From the IMG/VR virus record IMGVR_UViG_3300017716_002569, positions 1 to 61,959 of that record: a stretch of DNA of 61,959 nucleotides. One strand, 5' to 3'. The DNA is from a virus (Duplodnaviria; Caudoviricetes). Within the stretch, counting starts at the first letter, position 1. Every line of letters begins with the position of its first letter. The notes under the pieces were generated by a model, which was not told where the DNA came from, searched no databases, and saw nothing but the letters and a program-made list of their open reading frames with translations. The position numbers and the translations under genes are program-made. Below are positions 6,722 to 43,020 of this stretch, in pieces.

Positions 6722-6738
6722 CCTTAATTAAAAGTAAT

Positions 6739-6767
6739 AAAAAAGGCCACTTAATTGTGGCCTTTTT
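6739..6767. terminator. bidirectional intrinsic terminator
   Basis: AAAAAAGGCCAC-TTAATT-GTGGCCTTTTT between convergent operons. Confidence 0.85.
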
Positions 6768-6768
6768 G

Positions 6769-7185
6769 TTAAAATCTAATTGGTAGTTTTTTCAAATACA
6801 AGTAATAATCAATTTCTGTTAAACCTTCTCCTGATGGATGTGGGTCGTGAGCTGGATATGTTTTACTTGTTACAATACAATGTCGCGTTCCTCTTGGTGA
6901 TACGCCACGGGAAATAAAATAGTCTCGCTGTGGCAAATCTTCCACGTTACGGGTTTTAATAATAATACTGCTATGCTTATTACATAGCCAAATGTTCAAA
7001 ACGTCTAACCACATTGGATCATCCTTTTTGCTGTCTCCTGGCATATAGAAAACCTCAATGTTGGGTACCATTTCAGGTTGTTTATCTAAAATGGATGCTA
7101 TGCAAGTGGCAAGGCAATTACCATAGGTAAGCCTTTCGCCTTTGCTTGACTTGGTGCCGAATTTGGTTTGGATATTCTTTTTCAT
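6769..7185 (-). CDS. hypothetical protein, possible papain-like cysteine hydrolase fold
   Basis: 'GNCLATCIASIL' ... 'RHCIV' ... 'HDPHP' give a Cys-His-Asp arrangement. Confidence 0.45.
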   Translation of the reverse strand: MKKNIQTKFGTKSSKGERLTYGNCLATCIASILDKQPEMVPNIEVFYMPGDSKKDDPMWLDVLNIWLCNKHSSIIIKTRNVEDLPQRDYFISRGVSPRGTRHCIVTSKTYPAHDPHPSGEGLTEIDYYLYLKKLPIRF

Positions 7186-7186
7186 G

Positions 7187-7411
7187 TTACTTATTTTTGA
7201 TGCCTAAAATTCTTCTGTACTCAGGTTGGATGGTAATTACCCTATTACTCTTCCTTACGTCTATTCCGGTAATCGGTCCAAACTCTTCTGCCATTACAAC
7301 CATTTCTTCCTCATAAATCTTATCAATCACCTTTTGGCTGTGGCGTTCTTTCAATGCTACCTTCTCTGTGATGGTGCACTGATTCCATTTAAGTTCTATT
7401 CTAGTGCTCAT
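7187..7411 (-). CDS. hypothetical protein
   Basis: 74-aa ORF coupled to its neighbours. Confidence 0.55.
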   Translation of the reverse strand: MSTRIELKWNQCTITEKVALKERHSQKVIDKIYEEEMVVMAEEFGPITGIDVRKSNRVITIQPEYRRILGIKNK

Positions 7412-7688
7412 ACATTAAATAGGGGATTAAGACTGATAAAATTCCAAATAATCCGCTTAGAACCAATGTTCCAATAGCATAACACATAATTACTGTGTCC
7501 TTCCATGAAGATTCATCATCCACACGGGTTTCTTGTGTTTTAGTTTCCATTTTTAGATATTTTAAAGTGATTGTTATGTTTGGGTTTTCGTTTGCTTCTG
7601 TGTACCAAAACCACTGATTCCAATCCATGCATGTTCTTGGAATTACGCTGTGGCTTAAATTAAGTTTCAGTAAATCTTCGTTCTTCAT
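7401..7688 (-). CDS. small membrane protein
   Basis: C-terminal hydrophobic segment 'VIMCYAIGTLVLSGLFGILSVLIPYL'. Confidence 0.5.
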   Translation of the reverse strand: MKNEDLLKLNLSHSVIPRTCMDWNQWFWYTEANENPNITITLKYLKMETKTQETRVDDESSWKDTVIMCYAIGTLVLSGLFGILSVLIPYLMYEH

Positions 7689-7773
7689 TTTGCATCAATT
7701 AAATATTTGAAAATAATAACTAAGATAACTACAATTAAATAGATTAGTGCTGGTTTATTGTTTTTTTTCATGG

Positions 7774-9123
7774 TTAAAAATTTGATCTAACTAATTCTTC
7801 AGCCATTCGTGTAACTACAATTGGCACGACTGAATTGCCAATAAACTTTTTTTGCTGTGTTTGGTTGCCTTTTAATATGTATCTTCTAGGGAATCCCTGA
7901 ACTCTTAGTAGTTCATCAATTCTAAACATTCTCATTGTGATATCATATATGCCATGCATGGCCATGAACTGCTTAATTTTCTTGACCATTTCTGAATCTG
8001 TTTCATAAATCTGAATACCAAATACTCCTTTTTCTAATTGAACCAAATAAAGAGGTGCTTTATCCATCCTAGCTATAATTGTGGAACAAGGTTGGTCCAC
8101 AGAACCAGCATTAGTATTAAACCATTGAGGGTTTACAATGAAGCATGTAACCAAATTTAATTTAGGACTTCCCGTTATGCTGCCTGATGGCGTTTCAATA
8201 GAAGAATTTGTTTCTTGCCCAAAATCTCTGTAAATAAATCTTGGTTGTATTATTCCTGCGCTATCTTTTGTCCTTAGCGTTGGTCCTGGACTATCTATTG
8301 AGGTACAATTGTGTCCATTCCCATAATAGGATGCTAAAAAATCAGCCTCTCCCTTTCCTGATACAAATTTTAACAACCCAGAATAAATCCTTTTCAATGT
8401 GTTTTCAGAAAGTGGCTTCGGCCTATCAAATATACTTCTGCCTTTATCTTCCAAGTCTAAAACTTCTCTCACTGCTTTCCACGGGCTCAATAACAAATCC
8501 CCGTTTTTTGAATGTGTAGCCACGGGCCAAGAAATTGGCAAACCTTTTTTAGCAAAATATGCAAAGAATCTTTTGCGGCTGGTGTATGCACCAAAGTCAG
8601 CAGAGTTTAAAGCCCTCCAATCATATTCATAACCAACACCAAGAGCTTTCATTTCTTCAACCCATCGTAAATAATCAGAGCCTTGTTTTCTTGAAATAGG
8701 TTTATCGTGTTCATCAAGTGGACCCCAGCTCATAAATTCAACTACATTTTCTATACCTACATAGTCAGGGTTAAGACTTTCAACATACCACGGCATGAAG
8801 TCAGCTAAACTTCTTGAATCTGCATCCCGTGGCTTGCCTCCTTTGGCCTTAGAAAAGTTGGTACACTCTAGGCTTGCCCATAGCAATAATTTTGCTTTGG
8901 GATATTTCAATTGTGCTTCCAATGCTATTACTTGTAGCTGCTCCATTTGAATGTGCCTTATATCTTCTACAAAATGGATAACATCAGGATGATTAGCTTC
9001 GTGACTTGCAATAGCAATTTCATCGTGATTAATTGCTGCTATCACTTTACAATCTTGTGCACTTTCAAATCCGGTGGAAACACCACCTGCACCTGCGAAT
9101 AAATCTATAATTAGTAACTTCAT
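7774..9123 (-). CDS. dcm: DNA (cytosine-5)-methyltransferase
   Basis: Motif I 'IDLFAGAGG', motif IV variant 'SLECTNFS', motif VI 'IENV', 'RKRFF', motif X 'IGNSV'; ATG at 9123 preferred. Confidence 0.93.
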   Translation of the reverse strand: MKLLIIDLFAGAGGVSTGFESAQDCKVIAAINHDEIAIASHEANHPDVIHFVEDIRHIQMEQLQVIALEAQLKYPKAKLLLWASLECTNFSKAKGGKPRDADSRSLADFMPWYVESLNPDYVGIENVVEFMSWGPLDEHDKPISRKQGSDYLRWVEEMKALGVGYEYDWRALNSADFGAYTSRKRFFAYFAKKGLPISWPVATHSKNGDLLLSPWKAVREVLDLEDKGRSIFDRPKPLSENTLKRIYSGLLKFVSGKGEADFLASYYGNGHNCTSIDSPGPTLRTKDSAGIIQPRFIYRDFGQETNSSIETPSGSITGSPKLNLVTCFIVNPQWFNTNAGSVDQPCSTIIARMDKAPLYLVQLEKGVFGIQIYETDSEMVKKIKQFMAMHGIYDITMRMFRIDELLRVQGFPRRYILKGNQTQQKKFIGNSVVPIVVTRMAEELVRSNF

Positions 9124-9126
9124 TGT

Positions 9127-9174
9127 TTCTGATATGGGAATCGAACCCACGCCACAGAGGCATCCAATACAGAA
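9127..9174 (-). ncRNA. minimal tRNA-like element (T-arm, short hairpin, closing stem)
   Basis: Minus strand TTCTGTATTGGAT-GCCTCTGTGGC-GTGGG TTCGATT CCCAT-ATCAGAA; canonical T-loop. Confidence 0.45.
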
Positions 9175-9225
9175 AAAGCGGGGGAATTAGGAAACACGAC
9201 TAACCTAACTCCCTTTATCCGCTTT
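9173..9225 (-). terminator. intrinsic terminator hairpin whose loop is antisense to the leader motif
   Basis: AAAGCGG..GGGAGTTAGG-TTAGTCGTGTTT-CCTAATTCCC-CCGCTTTTT; the G.U pair forms only on the minus strand. Confidence 0.7.
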
Positions 9226-9227
9226 CA

Positions 9228-9509
9228 TTATTTTAAGTACACGGTATAGACAAGTCTAAAACCTTGTGCATGTACGGGCTCAATTCGCACATAGCTATTG
9301 AACACGCTTAATTTTTTCATCCTGAATGTTCCAATTATTTTGATGTCATTTTGTACCAACCAAGAATTAAAGTCAATGTAATATCGGTCTGCTTGTATGT
9401 CGCACCAATCTTTATAAATCCTTTTAATCTGTGGCCTTAGTTCTCTTGAAATAGTGGCTTGTATTTCTAGTGGTAATTGGTTAAATTCAATAGTCTGTCC
9501 TGATTCCAT
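9228..9509 (-). CDS. hypothetical protein
   Basis: 93-aa ORF, last gene before the terminator hairpin. Confidence 0.6.
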   Translation of the reverse strand: MESGQTIEFNQLPLEIQATISRELRPQIKRIYKDWCDIQADRYYIDFNSWLVQNDIKIIGTFRMKKLSVFNSYVRIEPVHAQGFRLVYTVYLK

Positions 9510-9511
9510 TT

Positions 9512-9823
9512 TTATAGGTTAATTAAAGTTAGTGCAACAAAGTTCAAATCGTTTAGGCAGTTGTCAACCCTTTCAGATATGTAGAGGTTGTATTTAGAGC
9601 ATCCTAGCTTCTTTCTAGTGGCTAAATAGCACTCTTCAGCATCTTTTATCAATACCCATTTACGAAGTGAATTAGACCACTTGTAAAGGTTATTTTCCAG
9701 AGTTAGCATAAACCTCTCCCCGTGTTCATTCTTGACGTAGAACTTCACCATTTTGTCCTTTAGTTCTTCGGCCAAAATAGTCACGGGTACTCCGTTTGGT
9801 AATATATATCCTTTTCCTTTCAT
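9512..9823 (-). CDS. hypothetical protein
   Basis: 103-aa ORF starting 18 nt after the predicted twister cleavage site. Confidence 0.6.
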   Translation of the reverse strand: MKGKGYILPNGVPVTILAEELKDKMVKFYVKNEHGERFMLTLENNLYKWSNSLRKWVLIKDAEECYLATRKKLGCSKYNLYISERVDNCLNDLNFVALTLINL

Positions 9824-9827
9824 GCTT

Positions 9828-9892
9828 TTAGCAGTTAGTTTACAGCCCGTGGGCTGTCCTCACTATTTATCCTGACTTGGAACAGGTGCTAA
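9828..9892 (-). ncRNA. twister ribozyme, type P3 (A)
   Basis: TTAGCA|CCTG TTCC AAGT CAGG|ATAAA|TAGT|GAGGA|CAGCC CACG GGCTG|T^AA|ACTA|AC|TGCTAA. P1-P4 all pair; pseudoknots TCC:GGA and AC:GT; predicted cut 9842/9841. Confidence 0.9.
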
Positions 9893-10291
9893 TATGTGCT
9901 CATTAATAAATTGAACTATTAAATCACAAGTCATTTCTGTTTTTTTAGATAAATCGCCACAGACCAATGATATTATTGGTTTATCCTCTTCCAATACCCT
10001 ATAAATTTGGTAGCTTATGCCTTTTATTGCTACCACATACCCCTGCTCTTCAATTCTCCTAATAACTGGTATCAAATAGTTAAAATCGGTATCAAATGGG
10101 TACTTCACAGCGTTTGTAAATCTACCCGTAAATGTAAGGGCTAATCCATTCCAAAGGTGAGCTAGTTCTCCTATTGTTTTGGCGTATTTATTGCCATTGT
10201 AAATAGGGTTAAAAACATCGTGTTGGTAGTCTATAACTTCATAACCCATAAACTTTGCAATGGTCTGTGTAATTAACAAATCTTTTTCCAT
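9863..10291 (-). CDS. hypothetical phage protein
   Basis: ATG at 10291; 'IAKFMGY...FDTDFNYLIPVIRRIE' pattern; 3' end overlaps twister A. Confidence 0.6.
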   Translation of the reverse strand: MEKDLLITQTIAKFMGYEVIDYQHDVFNPIYNGNKYAKTIGELAHLWNGLALTFTGRFTNAVKYPFDTDFNYLIPVIRRIEEQGYVVAIKGISYQIYRVLEEDKPIISLVCGDLSKKTEMTCDLIVQFINEHILAPVPSQDK

Positions 10292-10295
10292 GATA

Positions 10296-11066
10296 TTATA
10301 TATTATTGGTTTGACAAAATGTATCAAAATAAGCCTCTTCTTGTGCTTCTATCATGCCAAGGGCTGCATCAGGTTCTTGCGTAAATTTACAGGTGGTTTC
10401 TGAGGTCATGGAATAGCATTTTTTAAGGTCATAGTTGTAAAGCATTTCTTCTTCTTTCATTATCCTAACTCCCGTTTCTGCGCATTTGCTGTTAAAAATT
10501 GCCTTAATGACTTTCTGTTTATGGTCAGCGGTGGGAATTTGGCTTCCTGGTGCTGGGGTAAAACTGCTCTTTGCAGGCACATCAAACTCAATTTTGTAAA
10601 AGTCCTCTATTAATCCACAGCTCACATTAGGATTGTCAACGATTCTAAAATTATGTGCACCTTTTGGGAATGATTGATTAACTAGGATTCTGTAAAGCAC
10701 TTCGCTTTTTTCGTGGTGTCTGTTCCATTTTTCAGGCTCTTGATAGCTCCAATTAGTAAGCATTTGCTGCCTTGCTTCCTCGTCAATCAATCTGTGGCAA
10801 AACAAATGTTTAGTTTGTGGCAACCCTTCAATTCTGTTGGTTAGCTCGTACATATCAATCATGCCATTGAAAGAGCCGTATTGATACTTATTTGTAATCG
10901 CTGCCACTTCTTTGGTGGTTGCCCCTAGTGTCCATTCAACATCCACAGAATCACCTCCTGAATAGTTTTTAGAGGTTATTCTAAATGTAATGTCGGGGAA
11001 CTTTGTTTTTAGCTCAACCCTAATTGCTTGTGCGCATTGCGCAACTCTCGAAAGTTGTTTTTTCAT
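10296..11066 (-). CDS. LPD29 (large polyvalent protein-associated domain 29) protein
   Basis: 'AQAIRVELKTKFP...YSGGDSVDVEW...KYQYGSFNGMIDMY'; ATG at 11066 preceded by ACACGAC. Confidence 0.75.
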   Translation of the reverse strand: MKKQLSRVAQCAQAIRVELKTKFPDITFRITSKNYSGGDSVDVEWTLGATTKEVAAITNKYQYGSFNGMIDMYELTNRIEGLPQTKHLFCHRLIDEEARQQMLTNWSYQEPEKWNRHHEKSEVLYRILVNQSFPKGAHNFRIVDNPNVSCGLIEDFYKIEFDVPAKSSFTPAPGSQIPTADHKQKVIKAIFNSKCAETGVRIMKEEEMLYNYDLKKCYSMTSETTCKFTQEPDAALGMIEAQEEAYFDTFCQTNNI

Positions 11067-11073
11067 TGTCGTG

Positions 11074-11307
11074 TTACTTGGTTTTATAGTTTGTGATAGC
11101 TTGATTGAATAATTCCTTTGCATCTGTACCTTCTGAATGGCGTAACCTGATTTCATACTTGTACTTTGTGTCGGGATGCCATACTAAGGTTTCATCCTTT
11201 GCCATGTTTAGATTAACGAAGTATTTTACGCTAAAATCTTCGTGTGAGGCATCAAATAATGATTCCATTATTTCACCTTCTACTACTTTTTTAAATGTTG
11301 TTTCCAT
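11074..11307 (-). CDS. hypothetical protein
   Basis: 77-aa ORF starting 16 nt after the predicted hammerhead cleavage site. Confidence 0.6.
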   Translation of the reverse strand: METTFKKVVEGEIMESLFDASHEDFSVKYFVNLNMAKDETLVWHPDTKYKYEIRLRHSEGTDAKELFNQAITNYKTK

Positions 11308-11317
11308 GTCGTATTTT

Positions 11318-11371
11318 GATTAAGACCACCCTTGCGGATGGTTTCGGCTATTTAAGCCTCGTCAGTTAATC
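11318..11371 (-). ncRNA. hammerhead ribozyme, type I (HH1)
   Basis: GATTAA|CTGACGA|GGCT TAAAT AGCC|GAAA|CCATCC GCAA GGGTGG|TC^|TTAATC. Complete catalytic core, GUC site; predicted cut 11324/11323. Confidence 0.95.
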
Positions 11372-12073
11372 TTCTATTTCAATCAGGATTCCACCATTTA
11401 CTACAAATTCATAGTCTAAATCTGCCCATTCAGTATAATAGCTATTGCACCCCTCGTCACCTCCTTCTTTTTCGTACAAGTCATTGAAATCTTTATATCC
11501 TAGTGTCCGTGCGTGTTGGTCGGCTAACTCTTGGGTGCTTGCGTATGTTCCATCACTATCAAAATACCATCCTTCATCCATGCCGTTATCAGTAAATGAA
11601 CATTTACGCATGAACTTTTCACCTTCTTTGCCTTTTACAAATCTGTGGGCTGTGTAAAACTCTTCCAATGTATCAAACCAATCCGCAGTTTCTCCCCAAA
11701 TTTCATCCTCATATTTTGCAGTGAATTTAGTTGTAAGGTCATAGGCAAGCTCCCACGCTCCACCCATGCCCATTTGTTGATGTCTTAGGTGCGCTATTGA
11801 TTCCTCATTTTCCCTATCAATATCATCCTGAACGAATGATATAATTTCGTGGTGAGTTTCTGCCCATTCACGTTCCACGGGAACACGGCCAACTTCAATT
11901 CCAAACTCTGCGCCATCCTCTTGGGCGGCTGTGAGGTCTTCATATTCCTCAATCAATGATTCTGAACCATCAGGATGTAGGCGGTAAACCTCAAAGCATC
12001 CAGATACGAATACTTCCTTTGCTTTCTCGGTAACAATTAACCAAGTAAAGCCTTTTGTTGTTTTTGTGTTCAT
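11366..12073 (-). CDS. hypothetical acidic protein
   Basis: 235-aa, very D/E-rich; its stop codon lies in stem I of HH1. Confidence 0.65.
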   Translation of the reverse strand: MNTKTTKGFTWLIVTEKAKEVFVSGCFEVYRLHPDGSESLIEEYEDLTAAQEDGAEFGIEVGRVPVEREWAETHHEIISFVQDDIDRENEESIAHLRHQQMGMGGAWELAYDLTTKFTAKYEDEIWGETADWFDTLEEFYTAHRFVKGKEGEKFMRKCSFTDNGMDEGWYFDSDGTYASTQELADQHARTLGYKDFNDLYEKEGGDEGCNSYYTEWADLDYEFVVNGGILIEIED

Positions 12074-12489
12074 TATTCTGCAATTAGTTGTTTAAGTAAA
12101 TTAAGGTCAATTTCAGCCCAAAACTCGTCATTGGTGTGCTCGCCATAGCATTGGATGGTTACACCTTCATGTGAGAAGAATTTAGTGGTATAAGAGCGTA
12201 ATTTGTTTTCGGGCATGTTATCAAGTTCACTATCTTCTAAATCTACCAAATGAGCCCCATTAGTATTAAATTCGTTTTCATCTTCCATTCTGTCAGTGTT
12301 TATGAATGTTGGCGATGAATCTAATGTTTGGATGCAAAACAAAGAATGTTCTGCAATAATTGGGGCAAACTTAGCTTGCTCTTCAACTATCCTTTTACAT
12401 TTTTCAATTGGAATGAATAGCGCATCTACGCTATCAAAATCGCTGTTTGTTCTTGCAGGGAATAATATTCCCTTGTTTGTTGTACTCAT
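12073..12489 (-). CDS. hypothetical acidic protein
   Basis: 138-aa ORF with ACACGAC leader, downstream of twister B. Confidence 0.65.
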   Translation of the reverse strand: MSTTNKGILFPARTNSDFDSVDALFIPIEKCKRIVEEQAKFAPIIAEHSLFCIQTLDSSPTFINTDRMEDENEFNTNGAHLVDLEDSELDNMPENKLRSYTTKFFSHEGVTIQCYGEHTNDEFWAEIDLNLLKQLIAE

Positions 12490-12508
12490 TTTGTCGTGTA
12501 TTATTTAT

Positions 12509-12576
12509 TTAGTGTGTTTGTTTACGGGCATTTCTGCCCGTGCTCACAATTTAGGGGACTTGCAACCCTACACTAA
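12509..12576 (-). ncRNA. twister ribozyme, type P3 (B)
   Basis: TTAGTGT|AGGG TTGC AAGT C CCCT|AAA|TTGT|GAGCA|CGGGCA GAAA TGCCCG|T^AA|ACAA|AC|ACACTAA. Pseudoknots TGC:GCA and AC:GT; predicted cut 12524/12523. Confidence 0.9.
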
Positions 12577-13311
12577 TTGTTTGAGTACCATTATTTGTTT
12601 GATTACATTAAAAAATTGAGGGCTATTAAAAAACTCATTTATATCAGTAAATTGATTAGGTTTAAGTGTTTTTATATTGTGGGTTTTGTTGGTATAAACA
12701 GATACCTCTTCAAGCAATTCGTAATAGCCTTCTTTAAAGTAAAACATTACTATATCATCTAGTTGAATATTCCATGATGTATCTGTATTAAATTTCGGAT
12801 TTATTGTTACACGGAACATTGGCAAATCCTTTTTTAACAAGTCCAAATCAGCATACAATTTTGCTTTAAGATTGGCAGCATGTTGTTGTCTTTTTTGTTC
12901 TGCTGTGGCATCCCTTTCTACTTCAATTTTGATTTTATCCAATAGACTGGGTTTTTTCGGCTCTAATAGGTCTATCCTATGAATAACATATTGCACGGCC
13001 TCAGATGGCACGGAATTAAGCATATACTCCGTAGCTTCTTCATCCGATTCCATTTCATCAAAGAAAGATGCAAATAATAGGTTTGTGAGTGTTGGTGTTT
13101 CTTCAACGCTTCTAGCAAGTAAATCCAATACTTCCATAAATGCCTCTCTGTGGGCTGATGCAAGTATTACCCAATCATTGTTTTGTCTTCTTATCCTCCC
13201 ATTTGGATAGTAAATAGGGCCTGAACCCGTTTGTTCCCAATAGTAATTTTGTGGGTTGTCAATGCCTGATGCATCAAAAGGCAAATGTTTGATTTCTTCA
13301 AATTTTTTCAT
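12568..13311 (-). CDS. hypothetical protein
   Basis: 247-aa ORF flanked by twisters C and B; ACACGAC leader. Confidence 0.65.
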   Translation of the reverse strand: MKKFEEIKHLPFDASGIDNPQNYYWEQTGSGPIYYPNGRIRRQNNDWVILASAHREAFMEVLDLLARSVEETPTLTNLLFASFFDEMESDEEATEYMLNSVPSEAVQYVIHRIDLLEPKKPSLLDKIKIEVERDATAEQKRQQHAANLKAKLYADLDLLKKDLPMFRVTINPKFNTDTSWNIQLDDIVMFYFKEGYYELLEEVSVYTNKTHNIKTLKPNQFTDINEFFNSPQFFNVIKQIMVLKQLV

Positions 13312-13319
13312 GTTGTCGT

Positions 13320-13390
13320 GTTGTTAGTTAGTTTATAGGGCATTGCTGCCCTATCATCACTATTTGTGCGGACTTTGAACCGCTAACCAC
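13320..13390 (-). ncRNA. twister ribozyme, type P3 (C)
   Basis: GTGGTTA|GCGG TTCA AAGT CCGC|ACAAA|TAGT|GATGA|TAGGGCA GCAA TGCCCTA|T^AA|ACTA|AC|TAACAAC. Pseudoknots TCA:TGA and AC:GT; predicted cut 13335/13334. Confidence 0.88.
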
Positions 13391-13930
13391 TTATATTAAA
13401 CCTTCGTCAGCGAATGAGAAGAATGAACCGTTGGCAATTATTACATGGTCTATTAGCGCAATATCTAAAAACTTTGCTGCCGATTTAATTGTGTCCGTAA
13501 TTACTTTATCTTGAATTGAAGGGTTAAGATTTCCGCTTGGGTGGTTATGGCACAAAACTATACCGCTAGCAATATGTTTTAAAGCGTGATGAAATAATAA
13601 TTTGCTATCTACTACGCAACCACTAACACCGCCTACAGATAGCCTAATTTGCTTTATTACACCATTATTGCGATTAAGTAATAATAGCCAAAATTCTTCG
13701 TTTGGTAAATCCTGCAAAAATGAAAACTGTTCATAAATATGCGATGAACAAGTAATTTTTTTCTTTGCCATTCTGTTGTGCCTTGCAGCTAAATTTAAAA
13801 CTGCTTGGTACCAATCAGATTCCAAAAAATTATCATCTTTTTTATAGCCAATAAACTTGGCTATATCTTTATCAGACAAAGCATTTAAACCTAATACTGC
13901 TGCCATTTCTCGTACATTGTTAGTTGTCAT
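13391..13930 (-). CDS. radC: RadC family JAB/MPN-domain protein
   Basis: 'EEFWLLLLNRNN', 'HNHPSGNLNPSIQD', 'LIDHVII' and 'SFADEGLI' motifs; ATG at 13930. Confidence 0.9.
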   Translation of the reverse strand: MTTNNVREMAAVLGLNALSDKDIAKFIGYKKDDNFLESDWYQAVLNLAARHNRMAKKKITCSSHIYEQFSFLQDLPNEEFWLLLLNRNNGVIKQIRLSVGGVSGCVVDSKLLFHHALKHIASGIVLCHNHPSGNLNPSIQDKVITDTIKSAAKFLDIALIDHVIIANGSFFSFADEGLI

Positions 13931-13934
13931 GATA

Positions 13935-14120
13935 TTAGTTTTTATTGAATTGAGAAATAAAAAGCCACAGAATAGAAACGGCAGCACCAACAAGGGCGCA
14001 AATAAGGGATTGCATGATAATCGGGTGTTTAGATGATAGCTCTACAAATATGAGAAGGAAGAATCCAGAAATGCCTGAAATAAGGCCAACACGCATAAAG
14101 AACCAATTGTGCTTTTTCAT
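13935..14120 (-). CDS. small two-TM membrane protein
   Basis: ATG at 14120 overlaps the upstream stop; two hydrophobic segments. Confidence 0.55.
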   Translation of the reverse strand: MKKHNWFFMRVGLISGISGFFLLIFVELSSKHPIIMQSLICALVGAAVSILWLFISQFNKN

Positions 14121-14593
14121 TATACTAAACCCTCCTTCCTTAGTGCTTCCATTTCTTCTGCGGATAAAATAACCCAATTAGTATAATCTGTGGCCTTGTA
14201 TAGTAATTCATGTGATTTATCGTATTCATTGTGCTCGTATATCTCATATATACAGCAGCTATCTTCATCCATTGCATTAATACAATCAGCTAAACTAAAA
14301 TACTCTTGATCATCTGTAAATGACTTATAAATTTGATATGCGTCATCATGCATAAATAAATAACATGTCACAGAATCAACGGGCTTTTCCATTGCTGCAA
14401 TCTCTGCAACCTTATCAGCCCATTGTATATAGCTGTTAGCAGAAATAAGGGGGTTAGACCATTCCTTTGGATTTTCGGTTGCTCCTTCTTTGGTCATGGC
14501 TGCAATAGCTTGGATGCGTTCCCATAGGATAGCATTAGACACGGGGTTTGTAAATGCCCGTAATAGTTCAATTACTCGATTTTCGTTTGTCAT
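14120..14593 (-). CDS. hypothetical protein
   Basis: 157-aa ORF with ACACGAC leader, downstream of HH2. Confidence 0.65.
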   Translation of the reverse strand: MTNENRVIELLRAFTNPVSNAILWERIQAIAAMTKEGATENPKEWSNPLISANSYIQWADKVAEIAAMEKPVDSVTCYLFMHDDAYQIYKSFTDDQEYFSLADCINAMDEDSCCIYEIYEHNEYDKSHELLYKATDYTNWVILSAEEMEALRKEGLV

Positions 14594-14609
14594 TGTCGTG
14601 TTTTTAATT

Positions 14610-14665
14610 GGTTAATACAGCCATGTTTCAGGCTGTTTCAAGCATTTAGCTATCGTCAGTTAACC
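14610..14665 (-). ncRNA. hammerhead ribozyme, type I (HH2)
   Basis: GGTTAA|CTGACGA|TAGC TAAAT GCTT|GAAA|CAGCC TGAAACAT GGCTG|TA^|TTAACC. Full core, GUA site; U.U at the base of stem II; predicted cut 14616/14615. Confidence 0.85.
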
Positions 14666-14856
14666 TTTCTAGCTTTAGCGTTTTTTCTAACGCTGTTAGA
14701 TTCATATATCTTTCTAACCTCTGTTATTGAATGGATGGATTTTCTAATAGCTTCCCAATCAATAAGATTTTCATAATCATAAAACTCTGCACACTCATTG
14801 TCAAGCATTGTTTGAAGTGCTTTTTCTGAATTTCTTAAAATTGTTAGTGTTGTCAT
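14656..14856 (-). CDS. hypothetical protein
   Basis: 66-aa ORF; its TGA stop is the UGA of the hammerhead CUGA core. Confidence 0.55.
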   Translation of the reverse strand: MTTLTILRNSEKALQTMLDNECAEFYDYENLIDWEAIRKSIHSITEVRKIYESNSVRKNAKARKVN

Positions 14857-14857
14857 G

Positions 14858-15070
14858 CTATTTAATATTAATGGTTGATTGTAATTCGATACATTCAGGC
14901 TGTTTGTAGCCCCTTTGATTCCATACCTTGTGGGCTAAATCTTTTGCCCTTGCATGGTTTGCCTTATTCAATATAATAGATACCTTGTGTTTGGCTATTA
15001 TCTCGCTGCCCTCTGCCCATCCACTACCAAGTGACCATATAACGCCACAGAATAAATATTTTGTTCTCAT
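14858..15070 (-). CDS. hypothetical protein
   Basis: 70-aa ORF, translationally coupled. Confidence 0.55.
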   Translation of the reverse strand: MRTKYLFCGVIWSLGSGWAEGSEIIAKHKVSIILNKANHARAKDLAHKVWNQRGYKQPECIELQSTINIK

Positions 15071-15273
15071 AGCATGTATTGACCTTTACGGAAGTTAGAG
15101 AGGGAGAGACCATAAATAGCAAGGATGCTAACAGAATGGTGCGAAGTGCTTTTTTTGCCAATCTTAAACGGGTTGTTTTTTTTATAACCCAATTGGAACA
15201 TAATGCAGTTGATTTGAGCGTTTTGCTCAATCTTTACAGCACCTTTGAAGATTGTTATTGTCTTGACGTTCAT
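15067..15273 (-). CDS. hypothetical protein
   Basis: 68-aa ORF with ATGA overlap to the next gene. Confidence 0.5.
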   Translation of the reverse strand: MNVKTITIFKGAVKIEQNAQINCIMFQLGYKKNNPFKIGKKSTSHHSVSILAIYGLSLSNFRKGQYML

Positions 15274-15274
15274 A

Positions 15275-15553
15275 TTATGCTAAATCGGCCCTCCTAACCT
15301 CATTAAAAAACAATTGTTGCTGTCTAGAAGCCCTATATTTGGCTTCTTGTAGGTCTTTTGCTGCTTTCATTTCTTGAATAGCCACATTAAGTTTTTTCTT
15401 CCTATTTTCCTCAGAAAATTTAACAATTACAGCAATTTGCTCATCTGTAGCAATATTATTGCCTTTTTTTTCAGATTTCAATGTACCTAAAACTACCCTA
15501 TTACCTAGGGGTTTGAAGGGCTTTACCCTTGTTTTTTTGCTTGATTTTGCCAT
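15275..15553 (-). CDS. hypothetical basic protein, first gene of the ribozyme operon
   Basis: 92-aa K/R-rich ORF with ACACGAC leader and an upstream promoter. Confidence 0.6.
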   Translation of the reverse strand: MAKSSKKTRVKPFKPLGNRVVLGTLKSEKKGNNIATDEQIAVIVKFSEENRKKKLNVAIQEMKAAKDLQEAKYRASRQQQLFFNEVRRADLA

Positions 15554-15577
15554 TTTTTTGTCGTGTTAAAAGACAAA

Positions 15578-15610
15578 CAAAGCTATATATTAAAAACATA
15601 ATATCAACAA
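15578..15610 (-). promoter_or_regulatory. Bacteroidota sigma-A-type promoter for the leftward operon
   Basis: -7 box TAGCTTTG (15585-15578) matches TAnnTTTG; TTG-rich -33 region upstream. Confidence 0.65.
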
Positions 15611-15658
15611 CAAAAACAAAAACAAAATAAAATAAATGGTTAGTTTGCTGTAATACAG

Positions 15659-16198
15659 CTATTTATACAAATGAAAATCTTTGTTAATTTCTGCCCAAAG
15701 TATATCCCCGTGTGTCATTTCATAGGCTGTTATGCTTGCCTTATATTCACGGGCAAATGAATGAACAAGTTTTTTGCCTTCATCAGTTAATTGATAACAG
15801 CGCAAACGCTTACCCGTGCTGGGGCTGCTCACTTGTTGAGAGTATAAAATGCCACGGGTTTTAAGCAACCGAAGAACGGAGAAGAGACGAGAAGTAGGAG
15901 AACCAAATATAAGGGGCATCTTAGAGGGATGGAAATAGCGTTCCTCCCCGTCTGTCTTACTAAGGATGTAGATATAAACAACTAATTGGTATGTTCTATG
16001 CGTTAGCTTGTGCTTTTTCAGGAATTTAACAATAAAATTAGCATAAAAGAACACGTTTGCTGCGTGAAATGTGCCCAAAATATAAAGTTCTTCTCCTAAT
16101 TCCCTTTTCAATGTTGCTTTTATGGCTGCCCTATTATCTGCGCCTACATAGCGTTTACGAATCTTAAAGCCTCCATTACCCGTTGGATTGTTATTCAT
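15659..16198 (-). CDS. winged-helix (MarR-like) DNA-binding protein
   Basis: 'RLFSVLRLLKTRGIL...YQLTDEGKKL' wing motif; ATG at 16198. Confidence 0.65.
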   Translation of the reverse strand: MNNNPTGNGGFKIRKRYVGADNRAAIKATLKRELGEELYILGTFHAANVFFYANFIVKFLKKHKLTHRTYQLVVYIYILSKTDGEERYFHPSKMPLIFGSPTSRLFSVLRLLKTRGILYSQQVSSPSTGKRLRCYQLTDEGKKLVHSFAREYKASITAYEMTHGDILWAEINKDFHLYK

Positions 16199-16561
16199 GG
16201 CCACAAACCTATCGAAAACATGCCACAGATACAAATAGGGCAGCAAGAGGAAGAACACAAGGAGAGAGAAAACACACCAAGAGAACAAACACGCTTTTTT
16301 TTGCCCTTTTTTTTTGATATTTAATTATGACCTCACATTTTTACACCTTTTCATGAAATCATTTGGTTGCACATTACTGTTCTGACCTAGCACTTTTCAA
16401 CCCTTTTAATTGTTGATGGCGATTAGTCACTTTTTATACAAATTGGCACATGTTGCAGCCCCAAATTTTGCCGTTTTCGGTCTGTTTCACTCAAACACAC
16501 GTTTAACTCAATTCCAAAGGTACAATCTATCCACCCATGTTGAGATAATGCCTTAAATGTG

Positions 16562-17183: not shown

Positions 17184-17387
17184 GTGATGTCGTATATAGT
17201 GATCAATGAGAAGCGTGATGCAGATGGATTGGAAGAGCAGTATTGGGTGTTTTTTAGGCTATGGTGTAGGTTTGGGTATGAGATAAAAAGGGAGCAATAT
17301 GCAGCATTAGGAAAGGAGTTAAGGGCGTTGAAGTTGGTGATAGACCAGAAGAGGGGAAAAGTGCCGTGTTTGCCTGATAAAATTTGA
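17184..17387 (+). CDS. hypothetical protein
   Basis: 67-aa ORF coupled to the HTH gene. Confidence 0.45.
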   Translation: MMSYIVINEKRDADGLEEQYWVFFRLWCRFGYEIKREQYAALGKELRALKLVIDQKRGKVPCLPDKI

Positions 17388-19505: not shown

Positions 19506-20228
19506 ATGGCTAAGGGACTACCATATTTTGAATTTTGGACTTCCGAATGGCTAACTGGTGACATTTGTTTTGAGGACCTAGAAACACAGGGTTTATTTAT
19601 TAATATCTGTGCCTTATATTGGCAGCGTAATGGTGACTTATTAGTATCAGATATTGAAAGAAGATATAATAAACCGAACGCTTTTAATTCGCTTACCGAT
19701 AGGATAATTTCGGTTTCAGATGGGTTAATAAAAATAGCTTTTTTAGATGAACAATTACTTGCAAGAAAACATAAAAGTAAAGTCAATTCTGAAAATGGAA
19801 GCAAGGGAGGAAGGCCGAAAACAAAGGAAATAAAACCGAACGCTTTAGTTTCGTTAACCGAAATTAAACCGAATCAAAAGGCAATAGAAGAGAATAGAAG
19901 AGAAGAGAATAGAATAGAAGATAATAAAAGAGAAGAGAATTTACATCCACTTCAAAAGTGGATTAAAGAAACTAAACCTTTTGTTTCTAAAATTTCTAGT
20001 CAACTTTCTTTTGCAGAATGTGAAAGGTTAGTAATTCAATTTGATAAAACAACTCTACAAAATATTCTTGAGAACATGGAAAATTACAAGGGAGTTGAAA
20101 AAAAATATACTAGCGTTAACCTTACTGTTAGAAAATGGATAGCCAAAGATATTGCTGATAAGAAAAACTTACCAGCAGGTCAACAAGCTGATAGACCTGA
20201 TTTACAAAAAGCAATTTACAAAGGATAG
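19506..20228 (+). CDS. phage replication initiator (YdaU/DUF1376-like N-terminus)
   Basis: 'LPYFEFWTSEWLTG...QGLFINICALYW' and 'NSENGSKGGRPK' motifs; internal DNA repeats; adjacent to dnaB. Confidence 0.75.
   Translation: MAKGLPYFEFWTSEWLTGDICFEDLETQGLFINICALYWQRNGDLLVSDIERRYNKPNAFNSLTDRIISVSDGLIKIAFLDEQLLARKHKSKVNSENGSKGGRPKTKEIKPNALVSLTEIKPNQKAIEENRREENRIEDNKREENLHPLQKWIKETKPFVSKISSQLSFAECERLVIQFDKTTLQNILENMENYKGVEKKYTSVNLTVRKWIAKDIADKKNLPAGQQADRPDLQKAIYKG
19671..19940 (+). repeat. iteron-like repeats, probable replication origin
   Basis: AAACCGAACGCTTT at 19671 and 19833, further AACCGAA copies, then a purine-rich GAAGAGAATA tract. Confidence 0.6.
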
Positions 20229-20232
20229 TACC

Positions 20233-22594: not shown

Positions 22595-22912
22595 ATGAAA
22601 AAACCATATAAACAACCAGCAAAAAAGCTCACCAAGCAAGAGTGGGCCAAGATTGACGAAGAGTATTCAGAGGATATGAATATTCAAATTGCAGCAAATA
22701 AAAAGGACCCAGACAATTGGGTGAATGTCACCTGCAAGGGTGTTGTTATTCCACTGACCAAGGAAGAAGAGGTTGCCTGGAATAAGTTGTCAAGGACCGA
22801 CAAACGATCCATGGCTGACAGCATAAAGAAAAAAATTGATTCTGGGGCATTTGAATACATACAGTACGAAACAATAAAATTAATACGACCAACGCATGAA
22901 AGAGAAGATTAA
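22595..22912 (+). CDS. hypothetical protein
   Basis: 105-aa ORF in operon. Confidence 0.6.
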   Translation: MKKPYKQPAKKLTKQEWAKIDEEYSEDMNIQIAANKKDPDNWVNVTCKGVVIPLTKEEEVAWNKLSRTDKRSMADSIKKKIDSGAFEYIQYETIKLIRPTHERED

Positions 22913-23213
22913 CACACTATCAAACCGAGTTTTGATAAAACCCGATTTGGTATCAGAGGTTCAGAATGGGATAATTTCTGGATTTGAGACAAATGATGAA
23001 GGGCAAATAGTTAGGAAGCCAAGGAAGCCGCATACAGGTGTTGTTCTTTCTGTGGGGCGTTTCGTGCCACAGATTAAGGAGGGCATGAAGTTAATATTCC
23101 CAACCGGAGGTGCAACTGTTTTGCAGGAGAACGGGGAAGAGGTATTGATGTATAGGGCTTGTGACATTTTTGCAATTTTGGATGGAAAAAATATAATACC
23201 ATTAGCGTTATGA
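22896..23213 (+). CDS. GroES-like co-chaperonin
   Basis: 'LSNRVLIKP...GII...TGVVLSVG...IKEG..LIF...GEEVLMYRACDIFAIL' Cpn10 pattern. Confidence 0.75.
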   Translation: MKEKINTLSNRVLIKPDLVSEVQNGIISGFETNDEGQIVRKPRKPHTGVVLSVGRFVPQIKEGMKLIFPTGGATVLQENGEEVLMYRACDIFAILDGKNIIPLAL

Positions 23214-34886: not shown

Positions 34887-34888
34887 TC

Positions 34889-36255: not shown

Positions 36256-36257
36256 CA

Positions 36258-37040: not shown

Positions 37041-37046
37041 TAGGCC

Positions 37047-42101: not shown

Positions 42102-42352
42102 AACCAAGCAGGATAAATTACGAAAATCAGGTAGCAGACTTTAGGCAAAATTATCTTTTAGATCATCAGCTTAAGGAATTGCTATACAAGTATGAAACCC
42201 AAGATTGGATTTTTTTCATTGAGTTCTCCGGAGGCATACAAGGTTCCACAGATGCAAATATTAAGGCTTACACTTGGGATGAAACCAGTGGAAAACTTAT
42301 TTTGAAAGCAACTGGAAAAGCGAGTTATGGAGAATTAACGATAGTTGCATAA
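42098..42352 (+). CDS. hypothetical protein
   Basis: 84-aa ORF with ATGA overlap. Confidence 0.5.
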   Translation: MKPSRINYENQVADFRQNYLLDHQLKELLYKYETQDWIFFIEFSGGIQGSTDANIKAYTWDETSGKLILKATGKASYGELTIVA

Positions 42353-42412
42353 ATTTTTTGCTACTTTTGTTTTGTTTTGTGTAGATTTGTTTTTACTTTA
42401 ACTCTTAGTTTT

Positions 42413-43018: not shown

Positions 43019-43020
43019 TC

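What the first reader, a model, noticed from the sequence alone, without database searches (positions are those of the whole stretch)
11068..15566. Conserved AYACGAC motif immediately before six start codons of the ribozyme operon
Seen on the minus strand: AACACGAC-AAAAAA-ATG (15553), AAACACGAC-A-ATG (14593), AACACGAC-AAC-ATG (13311), TACACGAC-AAA-ATG (12489), AATACGAC-ATG (11307) and AACACGAC-A-ATG (11066). It marks the first gene after the promoter and the first gene after four of the five ribozyme cuts. I did not see it before rightward genes. It is not a Shine-Dalgarno sequence. Inference: it is a shared translational operator or enhancer, exposed near each new 5' end and read by a protein or an antisense RNA.
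Basis: partly seen in the sequence, partly recalled or inferred. Interest (0 to 1): 0.8.

Follow-up and report, generated by a model that had tools for sequence, protein, structure and literature searches.

The report
Shared start tag in ribozyme operon
Six genes in the self-cutting early operon of an uncultured freshwater phage start right after the same seven-letter RNA word, which probably helps or controls ribosome loading, and one hairpin in the same operon carries its exact mirror image.

Summary
AYACGAC occurs 10 times in the 61,959-base phage record against 3.5 expected. Seven of the 10 copies end 0-6 nt before a start codon (p about 8e-16).

ACACGAC(A) is the most enriched word upstream of the 62 starts. 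It marks 5 of 8 leftward genes with an upstream gap of at least 30 nt. Those five are the first gene after a putative Bacteroidota-type promoter and the first genes after 4 of 5 ribozymes. It marks only 1 of 11 tightly coupled genes. It is predicted unpaired in the processed leaders. It is not part of the ribozymes: 0 of 125 related hammerhead leaders elsewhere carry it.

Best reading (about 0.35): a phage-private, C/A-rich start-associated RNA element. Its only mirror copy on the transcript (GUCGUGUUU) lies in the loop of a terminator-like hairpin at 9175-9225. No close relative's DNA and no RNA data could be obtained, so the function is inferred.

The scan has noted shared leader tags with mirror RNAs in other Bacteroidota phages, but not this word. 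Closest published precedent: the start-associated sequences of Cluster K mycobacteriophages.

The parts
15560..15566 (-). Motif copy 1 (ACACGAC), 6 nt (AAAAAA) before ATG 15553 of the 92-aa first gene
14595..14601 (-). Motif copy 2 (ACACGAC), 1 nt before ATG 14593 (157-aa gene). It starts at about nt 15 of the leader left by hammerhead 1.
13315..13321 (-). Motif copy 3 (ACACGAC), 3 nt before ATG 13311 (247-aa orphan gene). Its first 2 nt overlap the 3' end of the twister 1 Rfam match.
12493..12499 (-). Motif copy 4 (ACACGAC), 3 nt before ATG 12489 (138-aa gene), 9 nt after the end of twister 2
11308..11314 (-). Motif copy 5 (ATACGAC), abutting ATG 11307 (77-aa gene). It starts at about nt 10 of the leader left by hammerhead 2.
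11068..11074 (-). Motif copy 6 (ACACGAC), 1 nt before ATG 11066 (LPD29-domain gene). It overlaps the stop codon of the 77-aa gene and has no ribozyme before it.
22883..22889 (+). Possible seventh copy (ATACGAC), 6 nt before ATG 22896 of a rightward 105-aa ORF, inside the end of the preceding ORF
14610..14665 (-). Hammerhead 1 (type I, stem I open). The cut is inferred after 14616.
   Evidence: not called by Rfam
13320..13390 (-). Twister-P3 number 1. The cut is inferred after 13335.
   Evidence: 62.2 bits
12509..12576 (-). Twister-P3 number 2. The cut is inferred after 12524.
   Evidence: 58.5 bits
11318..11371 (-). Hammerhead 2 (type I). The cut is inferred after 11324.
9827..9893 (-). Twister-P3 number 3, the one ribozyme not followed by the motif (leader ends AAAAGC before ATG 9823)
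9175..9225 (-). Terminator-like hairpin: 7-bp lower stem, 10-bp upper stem, then a U run. Its 12-nt loop (9192-9203, UUAGUCGUGUUU) holds the only reverse-complement copy of the motif on the leftward transcript (GUCGUGU at 9194-9200, extendable to GUCGUGUUU).
15578..15585 (-). TAGCTTTG, a fit to the Bacteroidia -7 promoter box TANNTTTG. It would put a transcript start about 5 nt before motif copy 1 (inferred).
   Evidence: consensus from PMC6847099; no canonical -33 at 17-21 nt
6740..6767 (-). Strong intrinsic-terminator-like hairpin that ends the leftward unit

Best explanation
AYACGAC (fuller form A-A-Y-A-C-G-A-C-A, that is ACA-CG-ACA) is a start-associated RNA word private to this phage. It acts on the messenger, not on the DNA.

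Where it sits: it lies unpaired, 0-6 nt before the AUG, in the variable half of a leftward early operon of anti-defence type (RadC-JAB, LPD29, C5 methylase, many orphan genes). Ribosomes cannot reach these genes by coupling from an upstream gene. They are the first gene after the putative promoter, the first genes after hammerhead 1, twister 1, twister 2 and hammerhead 2, and one internal gene. The ribozyme cuts would leave short leaders of 16-34 nt with 5'-OH ends, and the word begins 10-25 nt from each new end.

How I think it works: the host is probably a Bacteroidota bacterium, whose ribosomes ignore Shine-Dalgarno sequences. There the word would serve as a C/A-rich initiation element and, at the same time, as a common operator. 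The loop of the terminator-like hairpin at 9175-9225 reads GUCGUGUUU. That hairpin lies at the 3' end of the fragment released by twister 3. The loop can form 7-9 base pairs with every one of the six leaders, inside the ribosome's footprint. The hairpin RNA would then tune or shut off these genes together.

Shown: position, statistics, predicted accessibility and complementarity. Inferred: ribozyme cutting in vivo, the promoter, the host, any effect on translation, and the pairing itself.
For: - Position and statistics: 7 of 10 copies abut starts. It is the top enriched word before the 62 starts.
- Strand-specific, not palindromic, and variably spaced from the ATG (0, 1, 1, 3, 3, 6 nt). This argues for RNA-level reading rather than a DNA operator or a fixed-register Kozak-like context.
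- It marks uncoupled starts: 5 of 8 against 1 of 11, p 0.024.
- Mean probability of being unpaired is 0.84-0.97 in 5 of 6 processed leaders and 0.53 in the sixth.
- It is independent of the ribozyme modules. It follows two ribozyme classes, a promoter-type leader and a stop codon. 0 of 125 related hammerhead leaders in IMG/VR have it. I found 1 motif-before-start in 1.09 Mb of those loci, 2 in 165 RadC loci, and none on the operon strand of the other twister phage, G001.
- Mirror copy: GTCGTGT, GTCGTGTT and GTCGTGTTT are each present once in the leftward non-coding sequence, where 0.053, 0.017 and 0.005 are expected. The copy sits in the 12-nt loop of a hairpin within a 131-nt fold of -37 kcal/mol (z -2.7). 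Predicted duplexes with the six leaders are -10.6 to -12.5 kcal/mol. The one variable motif position (C or U) faces a G.
- In a screen of 2,551 terminator-like hairpins in all fetched DNA, this loop matched 4 leaders. It was the only such case that was neither A/T-only nor anti-SD-like.
- Host context: the nearest cellular DnaB homologues are Bacteroidota. Leaders are A-rich and mostly lack SD sequences. Bacteroidia ribosomes rely on upstream adenines, not SD (PMC6847099, passages).
- Precedents: ACA motifs upstream of starts enhance translation with flexible positioning and are masked by an sRNA (PMC3879156, abstract). The c4 RNA of P1/P7 is cut out of a longer transcript and uses loops to cover ribosome sites (PMC5320573, passages).
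Against: - There is no RNA, 5'-end or expression data of any kind.
- There is no conservation test. Relatives exist as proteins (DnaB at 99, 77, 77, 73 and 70% identity), but none of their DNA could be fetched.
- The single relative seen through contigs (run X4) has lost four of the six motif-bearing cassettes yet keeps the hairpin region (8 of its 9 differences in 9136-9873 are listed, and all 8 lie outside the hairpin). Whether it keeps the copy at 14595 could not be seen.
- The energy argument is weak. 8.4% of 500 shuffled loops bind at least 6 of the 62 start regions at -9 kcal/mol or better, because G/U-rich loops fit C/A-rich leaders in general.
- The mirror copy was found after the fact. 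One reverse copy somewhere in the record is expected by chance (about 2.2 per strand for the 7-mer). Only its place makes it notable.
- Three uncoupled leftward starts (9823 after twister 3, 9123 and 7688) lack the word.
- The hairpin may be nothing more than a terminator.
- Another phage lineage (G002/G004) has ACACG-YT-ATG leaders. This hints at a reader shared between phages, such as the host ribosome, rather than a private antisense RNA. Its own GCGUGUGG copy pairs locally with a nearby CACACGC in a fold no better than shuffles (z 0.19).
Confidence: 0.35

Rival explanations
1. Cis-only standard leader. The word is simply this phage's preferred C/A-rich initiation context, read directly by the host 30S subunit or protein bS1. 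It gives every independently loaded cistron the same insulated 5' leader after a ribozyme cut, like a natural version of the RiboJ design. The hairpin copy is a coincidence.
For: - The leaders are unpaired and A/C-rich.
- ACA motifs enhance initiation regardless of exact position (PMC3879156, abstract).
- Bacteroidia use upstream adenines instead of SD (PMC6847099, passages).
- A second phage lineage (G002/G004) uses ACACG-YT-ATG after a TAAGTTTG-type promoter and after two hammerheads.
- Many hammerhead leaders elsewhere are ACAC-rich.
- Shuffled G/U loops often match these leaders.
Against: - An exact 7-8-mer with an invariant central CG is more specific than a general C/A preference needs.
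- It is absent from the other 55 of the 62 called starts in the record, including highly expressed-looking structural genes.
- The register to the AUG varies, so it cannot supply the A-3/A-6 context consistently.
Confidence: 0.25
2. Protein operator. A phage or host RNA-binding protein recognises single-stranded ACACGAC next to the AUG. It either represses these early genes together (like T4 RegA) or cuts them (like T4 RegB at GGAG). The T4 comparisons are recalled, not checked here.
For: - The core is exact, short and single-stranded, and sits inside the ribosome footprint.
- It is restricted to one early gene block.
- The operon is full of proteins of unknown function.
Against: - No RNA-binding domain was found in the 20 leftward proteins scanned with Pfam, 10 of them also with PHROGs.
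- The 92-aa first gene product has no informative look-alike.
- Nothing points to a specific protein.
Confidence: 0.2
3. Inherited junction without a function of its own. The word is a scar or micro-homology copied along with leaders when gene cassettes were duplicated or swapped between phages.
For: - The block is mosaic. The X4 relative replaces or deletes cassettes, with junctions at gene starts and ribozyme edges.
- The two hammerhead leaders resemble each other beyond the motif (UUAAYCAA...AAYACGAC).
- Hammerhead-plus-leader modules are widespread.
Against: - None of the 4 junction pairs seen in X4 falls on the motif. The big deletion joins the conserved cores of two twisters.
- The word sits in four different contexts (promoter leader, hammerhead, twister, stop codon), while the flanking leader letters are not conserved.
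- 7 nt is too short for homologous recombination.
Confidence: 0.1
4. DNA-level site: an operator for the upstream PadR-like regulator, a promoter element for a phage polymerase or sigma factor, or a methylation site.
For: - A PadR-like gene lies just upstream.
- The operon encodes a C5 methylase.
Against: - The word is not palindromic and has no paired half-site.
- It has one orientation only, tied to the ATG at 0-6 nt. With 0 nt spacing, a promoter would start transcription inside the gene.
- It does not resemble TANNTTTG.
Confidence: 0.05

Closest known systems
Start-associated sequences (SAS) of Cluster K mycobacteriophages (Pope et al. 2011, PMC3203893; passages read)
   Same: - A short, non-palindromic repeat, private to the phage group, within a few nt of start codons (3-7 bp there, 0-6 nt here).
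- Restricted to non-structural genes and almost always in one orientation.
- Several of those genomes carry a single copy in the opposite orientation, as here.
- Function unknown; the authors suggest translation initiation and an RNA or protein reader.
   Different: - SAS is 13 bp, contains the AGGAG Shine-Dalgarno core and is conserved across subclusters.
- The word here is 7-9 nt and has no SD. It sits in a probable Bacteroidota phage, is tied to ribozyme-made 5' ends, and could not be tested for conservation.
- All 8 papers that use the term are listed under phages other than those of Bacteroidota: seven on mycobacteriophages and one a Citrobacter phage genome note (listing only).
ACA translation-enhancing motifs and their masking by the G/U-rich sRNA GcvB (Yang, Figueroa-Bossi and Bossi 2014, PMC3879156; abstract read)
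   Same: - C/A-rich element just upstream of the start that boosts initiation without strict positioning.
- One RNA pairs with it in several mRNAs.
- ACACGACA contains two ACA triplets.
   Different: - That system is enterobacterial, has an SD downstream, depends on Hfq and uses a dedicated sRNA gene.
- Here there is no SD.
- The candidate partner is a hairpin loop inside the same operon, and nothing has been tested.
c4 antisense RNA of phages P1/P7 (as described in PMC5320573; passages read)
   Same: - A phage RNA cut out of a longer transcript that also carries its targets.
- It uses loops to pair at or next to ribosome-binding sites.
- Here a tRNA-like T-arm follows the hairpin, which could recruit tRNA-processing enzymes (speculative).
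   Different: - There is no Rfam match of any kind at the hairpin.
- One loop instead of two, and six targets instead of one.
- c4 belongs to an immunity system.
Clustered self-cleaving ribozymes flanking genes in phages and prophages (Perreault et al. 2011, PMC3088659; passages read)
   Same: - Hammerheads, and here twisters too, between genes of an anti-restriction-type block.
- They are proposed to cut long transcripts into gene-length mRNAs.
   Different: That work does not describe a shared word between the cut site and the start codon.
RiboJ-type ribozyme insulators of synthetic biology (PMC6206723; search listing only)
   Same: A ribozyme cut removes the upstream context, so the gene gets a defined, standard 5' leader.
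   Different: - RiboJ is engineered.
- Its leader carries a hairpin and an SD rather than a C/A word.
Kozak-like upstream adenines of Bacteroidia (Baez et al. 2019, PMC6847099; passages read)
   Same: SD-independent initiation helped by A residues upstream of the start. The spacers after the motif are A-rich.
   Different: - Those adenines act at fixed positions (-3, -6, -12, -13).
- The motif's register varies by 6 nt, and it contains an invariant CG.

Membership tests
Shine-Dalgarno sequence | Purine-rich GGAGG-like run, about 5-10 nt before the start, complementary to the CCUCC end of 16S rRNA | tested here: not met
   ACACGAC has no GGAG. It lies 0-6 nt from the ATG.
Start-associated sequences (Cluster K mycobacteriophages) | Asymmetric repeat a few nt upstream of start codons of non-structural genes, one orientation | tested here: met
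   6 of 6 leftward copies lie 0-6 nt before starts in the early block, and 7 of 10 copies overall.
Start-associated sequences (Cluster K mycobacteriophages) | The 13-bp consensus with an AGGAG core given in PMC3203893 | tested here: not met
   The word is different and has no SD core (against the passages). This is an analogue, not a member.
Start-associated sequences (Cluster K mycobacteriophages) | Conserved across related phages, also before non-homologous genes | not testable with these tools
   No close relative's DNA could be fetched. The X4 contig was seen only through a truncated difference table.
ACA-type C/A-rich translational enhancer with sRNA masking | ACA triplets upstream of the start, position-flexible | tested here: met
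   ACACGACA has two ACA triplets in 5 of 6 sites. Spacing to the ATG is 0-6 nt.
ACA-type C/A-rich translational enhancer with sRNA masking | Mutating the element lowers translation; a complementary sRNA represses it | not testable with these tools
   This needs reporter assays. Only a complementary loop was found.
c4 antisense RNA (Rfam C4) | Match to the C4 covariance model | tested here: not met
   There is no Rfam hit at E<=1 at 9100-9260.
Twister-P3 or hammerhead ribozyme (is the word part of the ribozyme?) | Lies within the conserved core or helices of the ribozyme | tested here: not met
   - Rfam alignments end at 13320 and 12509, so only 2 nt overlap at twister 1.
- The hammerhead folds end before the word.
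- 0 of 125 related hammerhead leaders carry it.
- Two copies have no ribozyme upstream.
Bacteroidia Kozak-like context | Adenines at fixed positions -3 and -6 (and -12, -13) | tested here: inconclusive
   A at both -3 and -6 in 3 of 6 sites (15553, 14593, 11066). The register of the word shifts by up to 6 nt.
Bacteroidia primary promoter | -33 TTTG and -7 TANNTTTG | tested here: not met
   The word does not resemble either box.

The most novel reading that the evidence does not exclude
The phage runs a self-contained RNA circuit. Five ribozymes cut one early transcript into messages that each begin with the same C/A-rich tag. The last piece ends in a stable hairpin whose loop is the mirror of that tag. 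The hairpin may be released with the help of the tRNA-like T-arm that follows it. As the hairpin RNA accumulates, it would pair with all six tagged leaders and switch off the anti-defence genes together. That would be a multi-target antisense timer built into the operon it controls, in a host whose ribosomes ignore Shine-Dalgarno sequences.
Probability: 0.25. Interest if true: 0.75.

Novelty: new variant of a known kind. Interest (0 to 1): 0.45.

Why it matters
Why phages fill early operons with self-cleaving ribozymes has been open since 2011. How Bacteroidota ribosomes pick start sites without Shine-Dalgarno pairing is only partly understood.

Here the ribozyme cuts and a shared start tag coincide. 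The tag is short enough to mutate, and it has a specific candidate partner in the same operon. That turns both questions into simple reporter and toeprint experiments.

If the tag is a portable initiation or operator signal for Bacteroidota, it would also be a useful part for engineering these bacteria. If it proves to be a mere copy scar, it still shows how cassettes are shuffled at ribozyme borders.

Tried and rejected
Looking for relatives, which was the main gap:
- Megablast of 6700-16300 against phage records found no match.
- Protein-seeded scans of viral contigs gave little. The 247-aa gene found none. The 235-aa gene found three loci with 36-39% domain matches. The 533-aa ORF 20152-21753 found none; I first took it for a terminase, but it is a DnaB helicase.
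- The RadC gene gave 80 loci of at most 55% identity in viral contigs and 80 of at most 58% in metagenome contigs. None had the word before starts. The ATACGAC hits in gut elements are in-frame Tyr-Asp codons.
- Homologue searches found the 247-aa and 103-aa proteins only in their own clusters.
- DnaB has relatives at 99, 77, 77, 73 and 70% identity. An alignment of them (A1) found nothing close in viral contigs, genome contigs or phage records.

Pattern scans:
- A twister-core pattern found 1 other phage, G001, which has no motif on that strand.
- A twister-tail-plus-motif pattern gave at least 119 stretches that look like chance. No twister was found in the 12 of the 119 loci that I gave to Rfam, chosen by eye from the single start-like hits.
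- A local tblastn of the 20 leftward proteins against 409 fetched loci gave only domain-level hits.

Sequencing runs: no RNA holder was listed. The contigs laid cannot show RNA ends. 53 of the difference rows were not shown, so the state of the 14595 copy in the X4 relative is unknown.

Ideas rejected:
- Pairing with 16S rRNA. I could think of no accessible complementary stretch. This rests on memory only and was not tested.
- The word as part of the ribozymes (see the membership test).
- A promoter.
- Pairing of the word with nearby downstream sequence. No consistent structure appeared.

Other results:
- The candidate mirror copy in G004 turned out ambiguous.
- The hairpin screen showed 67 of 2,551 loops matching at least 2 leaders, against 28 and 29 in two controls. 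Many loci are redundant copies of one gut element, so I draw no general conclusion.
- The protein atlas gave nothing for the 92-aa first protein.
- Supplementary files of papers were not opened. The SAS site lists in the supplementary figures of PMC3203893 might refine the comparison.

In-print check: I found no paper that links natural ribozyme arrays to a shared leader word.

Full report
WHAT THE WINDOW IS

The window is a whole IMG/VR virus record of 61,959 bases. It is linear and estimated 85% complete. Near-identical DNA was found only in freshwater metagenome runs.

The record has 37% G+C. Most gene starts follow A-rich leaders without a Shine-Dalgarno sequence. The nearest cellular homologues of its DnaB-type helicase (20233-21753) are all named Bacteroidota, at about 45% identity. 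A Bacteroidota host is therefore likely, but it is inferred.

The finding lies in a leftward unit that runs from about 16200 to a strong terminator at 6740-6767. The unit encodes:
- a PadR-like regulator;
- many small orphan proteins;
- a RadC-like JAB protein, an LPD29-domain protein and a C5 cytosine methylase.

This is the gene content typical of early anti-restriction blocks.

THE RIBOZYMES

Rfam calls three type-P3 twisters, at 13320-13390, 12509-12576 and 9827-9893 (58-62 bits).

Two further elements are not called by Rfam even at E<=1. They match a hammerhead core pattern (2 matches, 0 expected). They also fold as three-way junctions with an open stem I (-15.7 and -17.8 kcal/mol, z -3.7 and -3.4).

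So these are ordinary phage type-I hammerheads.

I placed the cut sites from the consensus: after the GUH triplet of the hammerheads, and at the U|AA step after the P1 hairpin of the twisters. The twister position is recalled from the literature, not checked here. This gives new 5' ends at 14615, 13334, 12523, 11323 and 9841.

THE OBSERVATION

- AYACGAC occurs 10 times on both strands, against 3.54 expected. None of 100 shuffles reaches 10.
- Seven of the 10 copies end 0-6 nt upstream of one of 62 called starts on their own strand (P about 8e-16).
- Without any prior, ACACGAC and ACACGACA are the most enriched 7- and 8-mers in the 22 nt before the 62 starts. All five copies of ACACGACA in the record are before starts.

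The seventh copy is new: ATACGAC at 22883-22889, 6 nt before the ATG of a rightward ORF.

Of the three remaining copies, two lie elsewhere (17189-17195 on the minus strand, 27958-27964 on the plus strand). One is reversed, at 9194-9200 on the plus strand.

WHERE THE WORD SITS

Among the 19 leftward genes downstream of the PadR-like gene, 8 have at least 30 nt between the previous stop and their start. Five of those 8 carry the word (15553, 14593, 13311, 12489, 11307). Of the 11 genes that overlap or nearly abut the previous gene, one does (11066). The Fisher p is 0.024.

The three uncoupled starts without the word are 9823 (after twister 3), 9123 and 7688. All lie in the downstream half of the unit.

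With the inferred cut sites, the leaders are 22, 23, 34 and 16 nt long. The word begins at nucleotides 15, 14, 25 and 10 of these leaders.

Before 15553 there is a TAGCTTTG box (15578-15585). It fits the Bacteroidia -7 consensus TANNTTTG (PMC6847099, passage). That would give a leader of about 18 nt. However, no TTTG lies at the usual -33 distance, so this promoter is uncertain.

In folds of the processed 5' ends, the word has a mean unpaired probability of 0.84-0.97 at five sites and 0.53 at the sixth.

WHAT IT IS NOT

It is not a Shine-Dalgarno sequence.

It is not part of the ribozymes.
- The Rfam twister alignments stop before it, with a 2-nt overlap at twister 1.
- The hammerhead folds end before it.
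- Two copies have no ribozyme upstream.
- None of 125 related hammerhead leaders in IMG/VR carries it.

Those leaders show a common form, UUAAYCAA, then often UUAAAAC, then 7-10 letters, then AUG. The leader of hammerhead 1 here is one variant of that form.

It is not a Kozak-like fixed context, because its distance to the AUG is 0, 1, 1, 3, 3 and 6 nt.

It is unlikely to be a DNA site. It is not palindromic and has one orientation. With 0 nt spacing it could not serve as a promoter.

Elsewhere it is rare before starts:
- 2 cases in 165 RadC-anchored loci;
- 1 case in 1.09 Mb of hammerhead-bearing phage loci;
- none on the operon strand of the only other phage found with this twister subtype, G001.

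THE MIRROR COPY

On the leftward transcript, the reversed copy reads GUCGUGU and extends to GUCGUGUUU. That is the complement of AAACACGAC.

It is the only such copy in the leftward non-coding sequence, where 0.053, 0.017 and 0.005 are expected for the 7-, 8- and 9-mer.

It lies in the 12-nt loop (9192-9203) of a hairpin with a 7-bp lower stem and a 10-bp upper stem (9175-9225), followed by a U run. The 131-nt region folds at -37 kcal/mol (z -2.7).

The hairpin closes the fragment that begins at the twister 3 cut. That fragment carries two small genes.

Predicted loop-leader duplexes are -10.6 to -12.5 kcal/mol for the six sites. The duplex would cover positions about -1 to -15, inside the ribosome footprint. 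The only variable position of the word (C or U) faces a G.

Against this:
- The energies alone mean little. 8.4% of 500 shuffled loops reach at least six start regions at -9 kcal/mol or better.
- I found the copy after the fact.
- The hairpin may be only a terminator.

In a crude screen of 2,551 terminator-like hairpins in everything fetched, 67 had loop complements in at least two leaders, against 28 and 29 in two controls. The loci are redundant, though. This loop, with four leaders, was the only case with three or more that was neither A/T-only nor anti-SD-like.

RELATIVES

This is the weak point. The operon's orphan proteins have no homologues outside their own clusters. Helicase relatives at 70-99% identity exist as proteins. 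None of their DNA was reachable.

One relative was seen indirectly, as a 9,631-nt contig in run X4.
- It matches 15387-15511, 14853-15273, 14343-14666 and 13371-14158.
- It then jumps from 13371 to 9873, that is, from the conserved core of twister 1 into the core of twister 3.
- It continues to 9136 with 9 differences. Eight of them are listed, and all eight lie in 9644-9790, outside the hairpin.

So this relative lacks four of the six tagged cassettes and keeps the hairpin. Whether it keeps the copy at 14595 is unknown, because 53 difference rows were not shown. None of its four junction pairs falls on the word. That speaks against a recombination scar.

A short X5 contig resembles hammerhead 2. 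Its similarity ends inside the word (at 11313), and it then continues with unrelated letters.

A SECOND LINEAGE WITH A SIMILAR WORD

Two nearly identical IMG/VR records (G002, G004) carry ACACG-YT-ATG in three places: before the first gene after a TAAGTTTG box, and after two hammerheads. A related record (G003) has it after one hammerhead. ACACG is not the top leader word there.

This suggests that AACACG close to the AUG may be favoured more widely. That would fit a host-side reader.

G004 also has a GCGUGUGG stretch about 390 nt upstream of that operon. In the fold it pairs with a CACACGC 60 nt away, and the fold is no better than shuffles (z 0.19). I therefore count it as ambiguous.

COMPARISON WITH WHAT IS KNOWN

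The closest published thing is the start-associated sequence of Cluster K mycobacteriophages. It is a 13-bp asymmetric repeat, 3-7 bp before the starts of non-structural genes, in one orientation, with a single opposite copy in several genomes. Its function is unknown, and an RNA or protein reader was suggested (PMC3203893, passages). The word here is an analogue, not a member. It lacks the SD core of SAS, and its conservation is untested.

Two mechanisms offer fitting models:
- ACA enhancer motifs masked by GcvB (PMC3879156, abstract);
- the loop-pairing c4 RNA of P1/P7, which is processed from a longer transcript (PMC5320573, passages).

Clustered ribozymes in phage blocks have been known since 2011 (PMC3088659, passages).

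Earlier notes of this scan describe shared leader tags with mirror small RNAs in several other Bacteroidota phages. I used them as leads and did not test them. They raised my prior for the antisense reading.

VERDICT

My odds:
- about 0.75 that the word is a selected, RNA-level element of translation initiation;
- within that, about 0.35 that the hairpin loop is its partner, 0.25 that it acts in cis only, and 0.2 that a protein reads it;
- about 0.1 that it is a copy scar and 0.05 that it is a DNA site.

It is a new variant of a known kind of feature. Interest is moderate, because it is one uncultured phage with no functional or comparative data, but the test is cheap and clear.

Noticed in passing
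window 9873 and 13371 (twister 3 and twister 1 cores): A relative in run X4 joins 13371 directly to 9873, inside the conserved CAAGUC cores of two twisters. This deletes 3,497 nt that hold four gene cassettes. The ribozymes therefore also act as recombination borders for cassette gain and loss. Other junctions lie at 14158/14343, 14666/14853 and 15273/15387.
   Followed up: partly
window 9124-9176 (-): Between the hairpin and the methylase start there is a tRNA-like T-arm (GUGGGUUCGAUUCCCAU, 9134-9150). A 6-bp acceptor-like pairing (UUUCUG with CAGAAA) encloses it. Neither ARAGORN nor Rfam calls it. It could be a processing site for RNase P or RNase Z, by analogy with the ribozymes.
   Followed up: no
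window 22883-22889 (+): ATACGAC lies 6 nt before the ATG of rightward ORF 22896-23213, overlapping the end of the preceding ORF. It is a possible seventh member outside the early operon.
   Followed up: partly
window 20233-21753 (+): A DnaB-type replicative helicase. Phage relatives at 99, 77, 77, 73 and 70% identity exist in the protein collection. All named cellular homologues, at about 45%, are Bacteroidota.
   Followed up: partly
window 9204-9213 and 10464-10473 (-): The 10-mer GGGAGTTAGG of the hairpin's upper stem recurs exactly inside the LPD29 gene. TAATGAAAG lies nearby in both places, but in a different order. This is unexplained and may be chance.
   Followed up: no
loci L294-L413 (IMG/VR): Type-I hammerheads that cut before UUAAYCAA, followed by a 10-30 nt A-rich leader and an ATG, are very common in uncultured phages. 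Rfam missed both copies in this window.
   Followed up: partly
L334/L391/L416 (records G002, G004), for example L416 7697-7707 and 8405-8415: Another phage lineage places ACACG-YT-ATG before the first gene after a TAAGTTTG box and after two hammerheads. About 390 nt upstream, CACACGC and GCGUGUGG can pair across 60 nt.
   Followed up: partly
L174 (record G001, 34000-53999): In the only other phage found with this twister subtype, AATCAAT occurs 11 times on the gene strand and its complement once. It often lies just before starts. These are probably the 3' strands of uncalled hammerheads.
   Followed up: partly
window 16204-16235 (-): A full Bacteroidia-type promoter match (TTTG, 20 nt, TAGGTTTG) ends 5 nt before the ATG of the PadR-like gene at 16198. 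That gene may therefore be nearly leaderless, and leftward transcription may start there.
   Followed up: no
window 15600-15645 (-): A long G/U-only tract (runs of U broken by single G's) lies just upstream of the putative promoter of the tagged operon. If transcribed from the PadR promoter, it is a second G/U-rich stretch that could pair with C/A-rich leaders.
   Followed up: no
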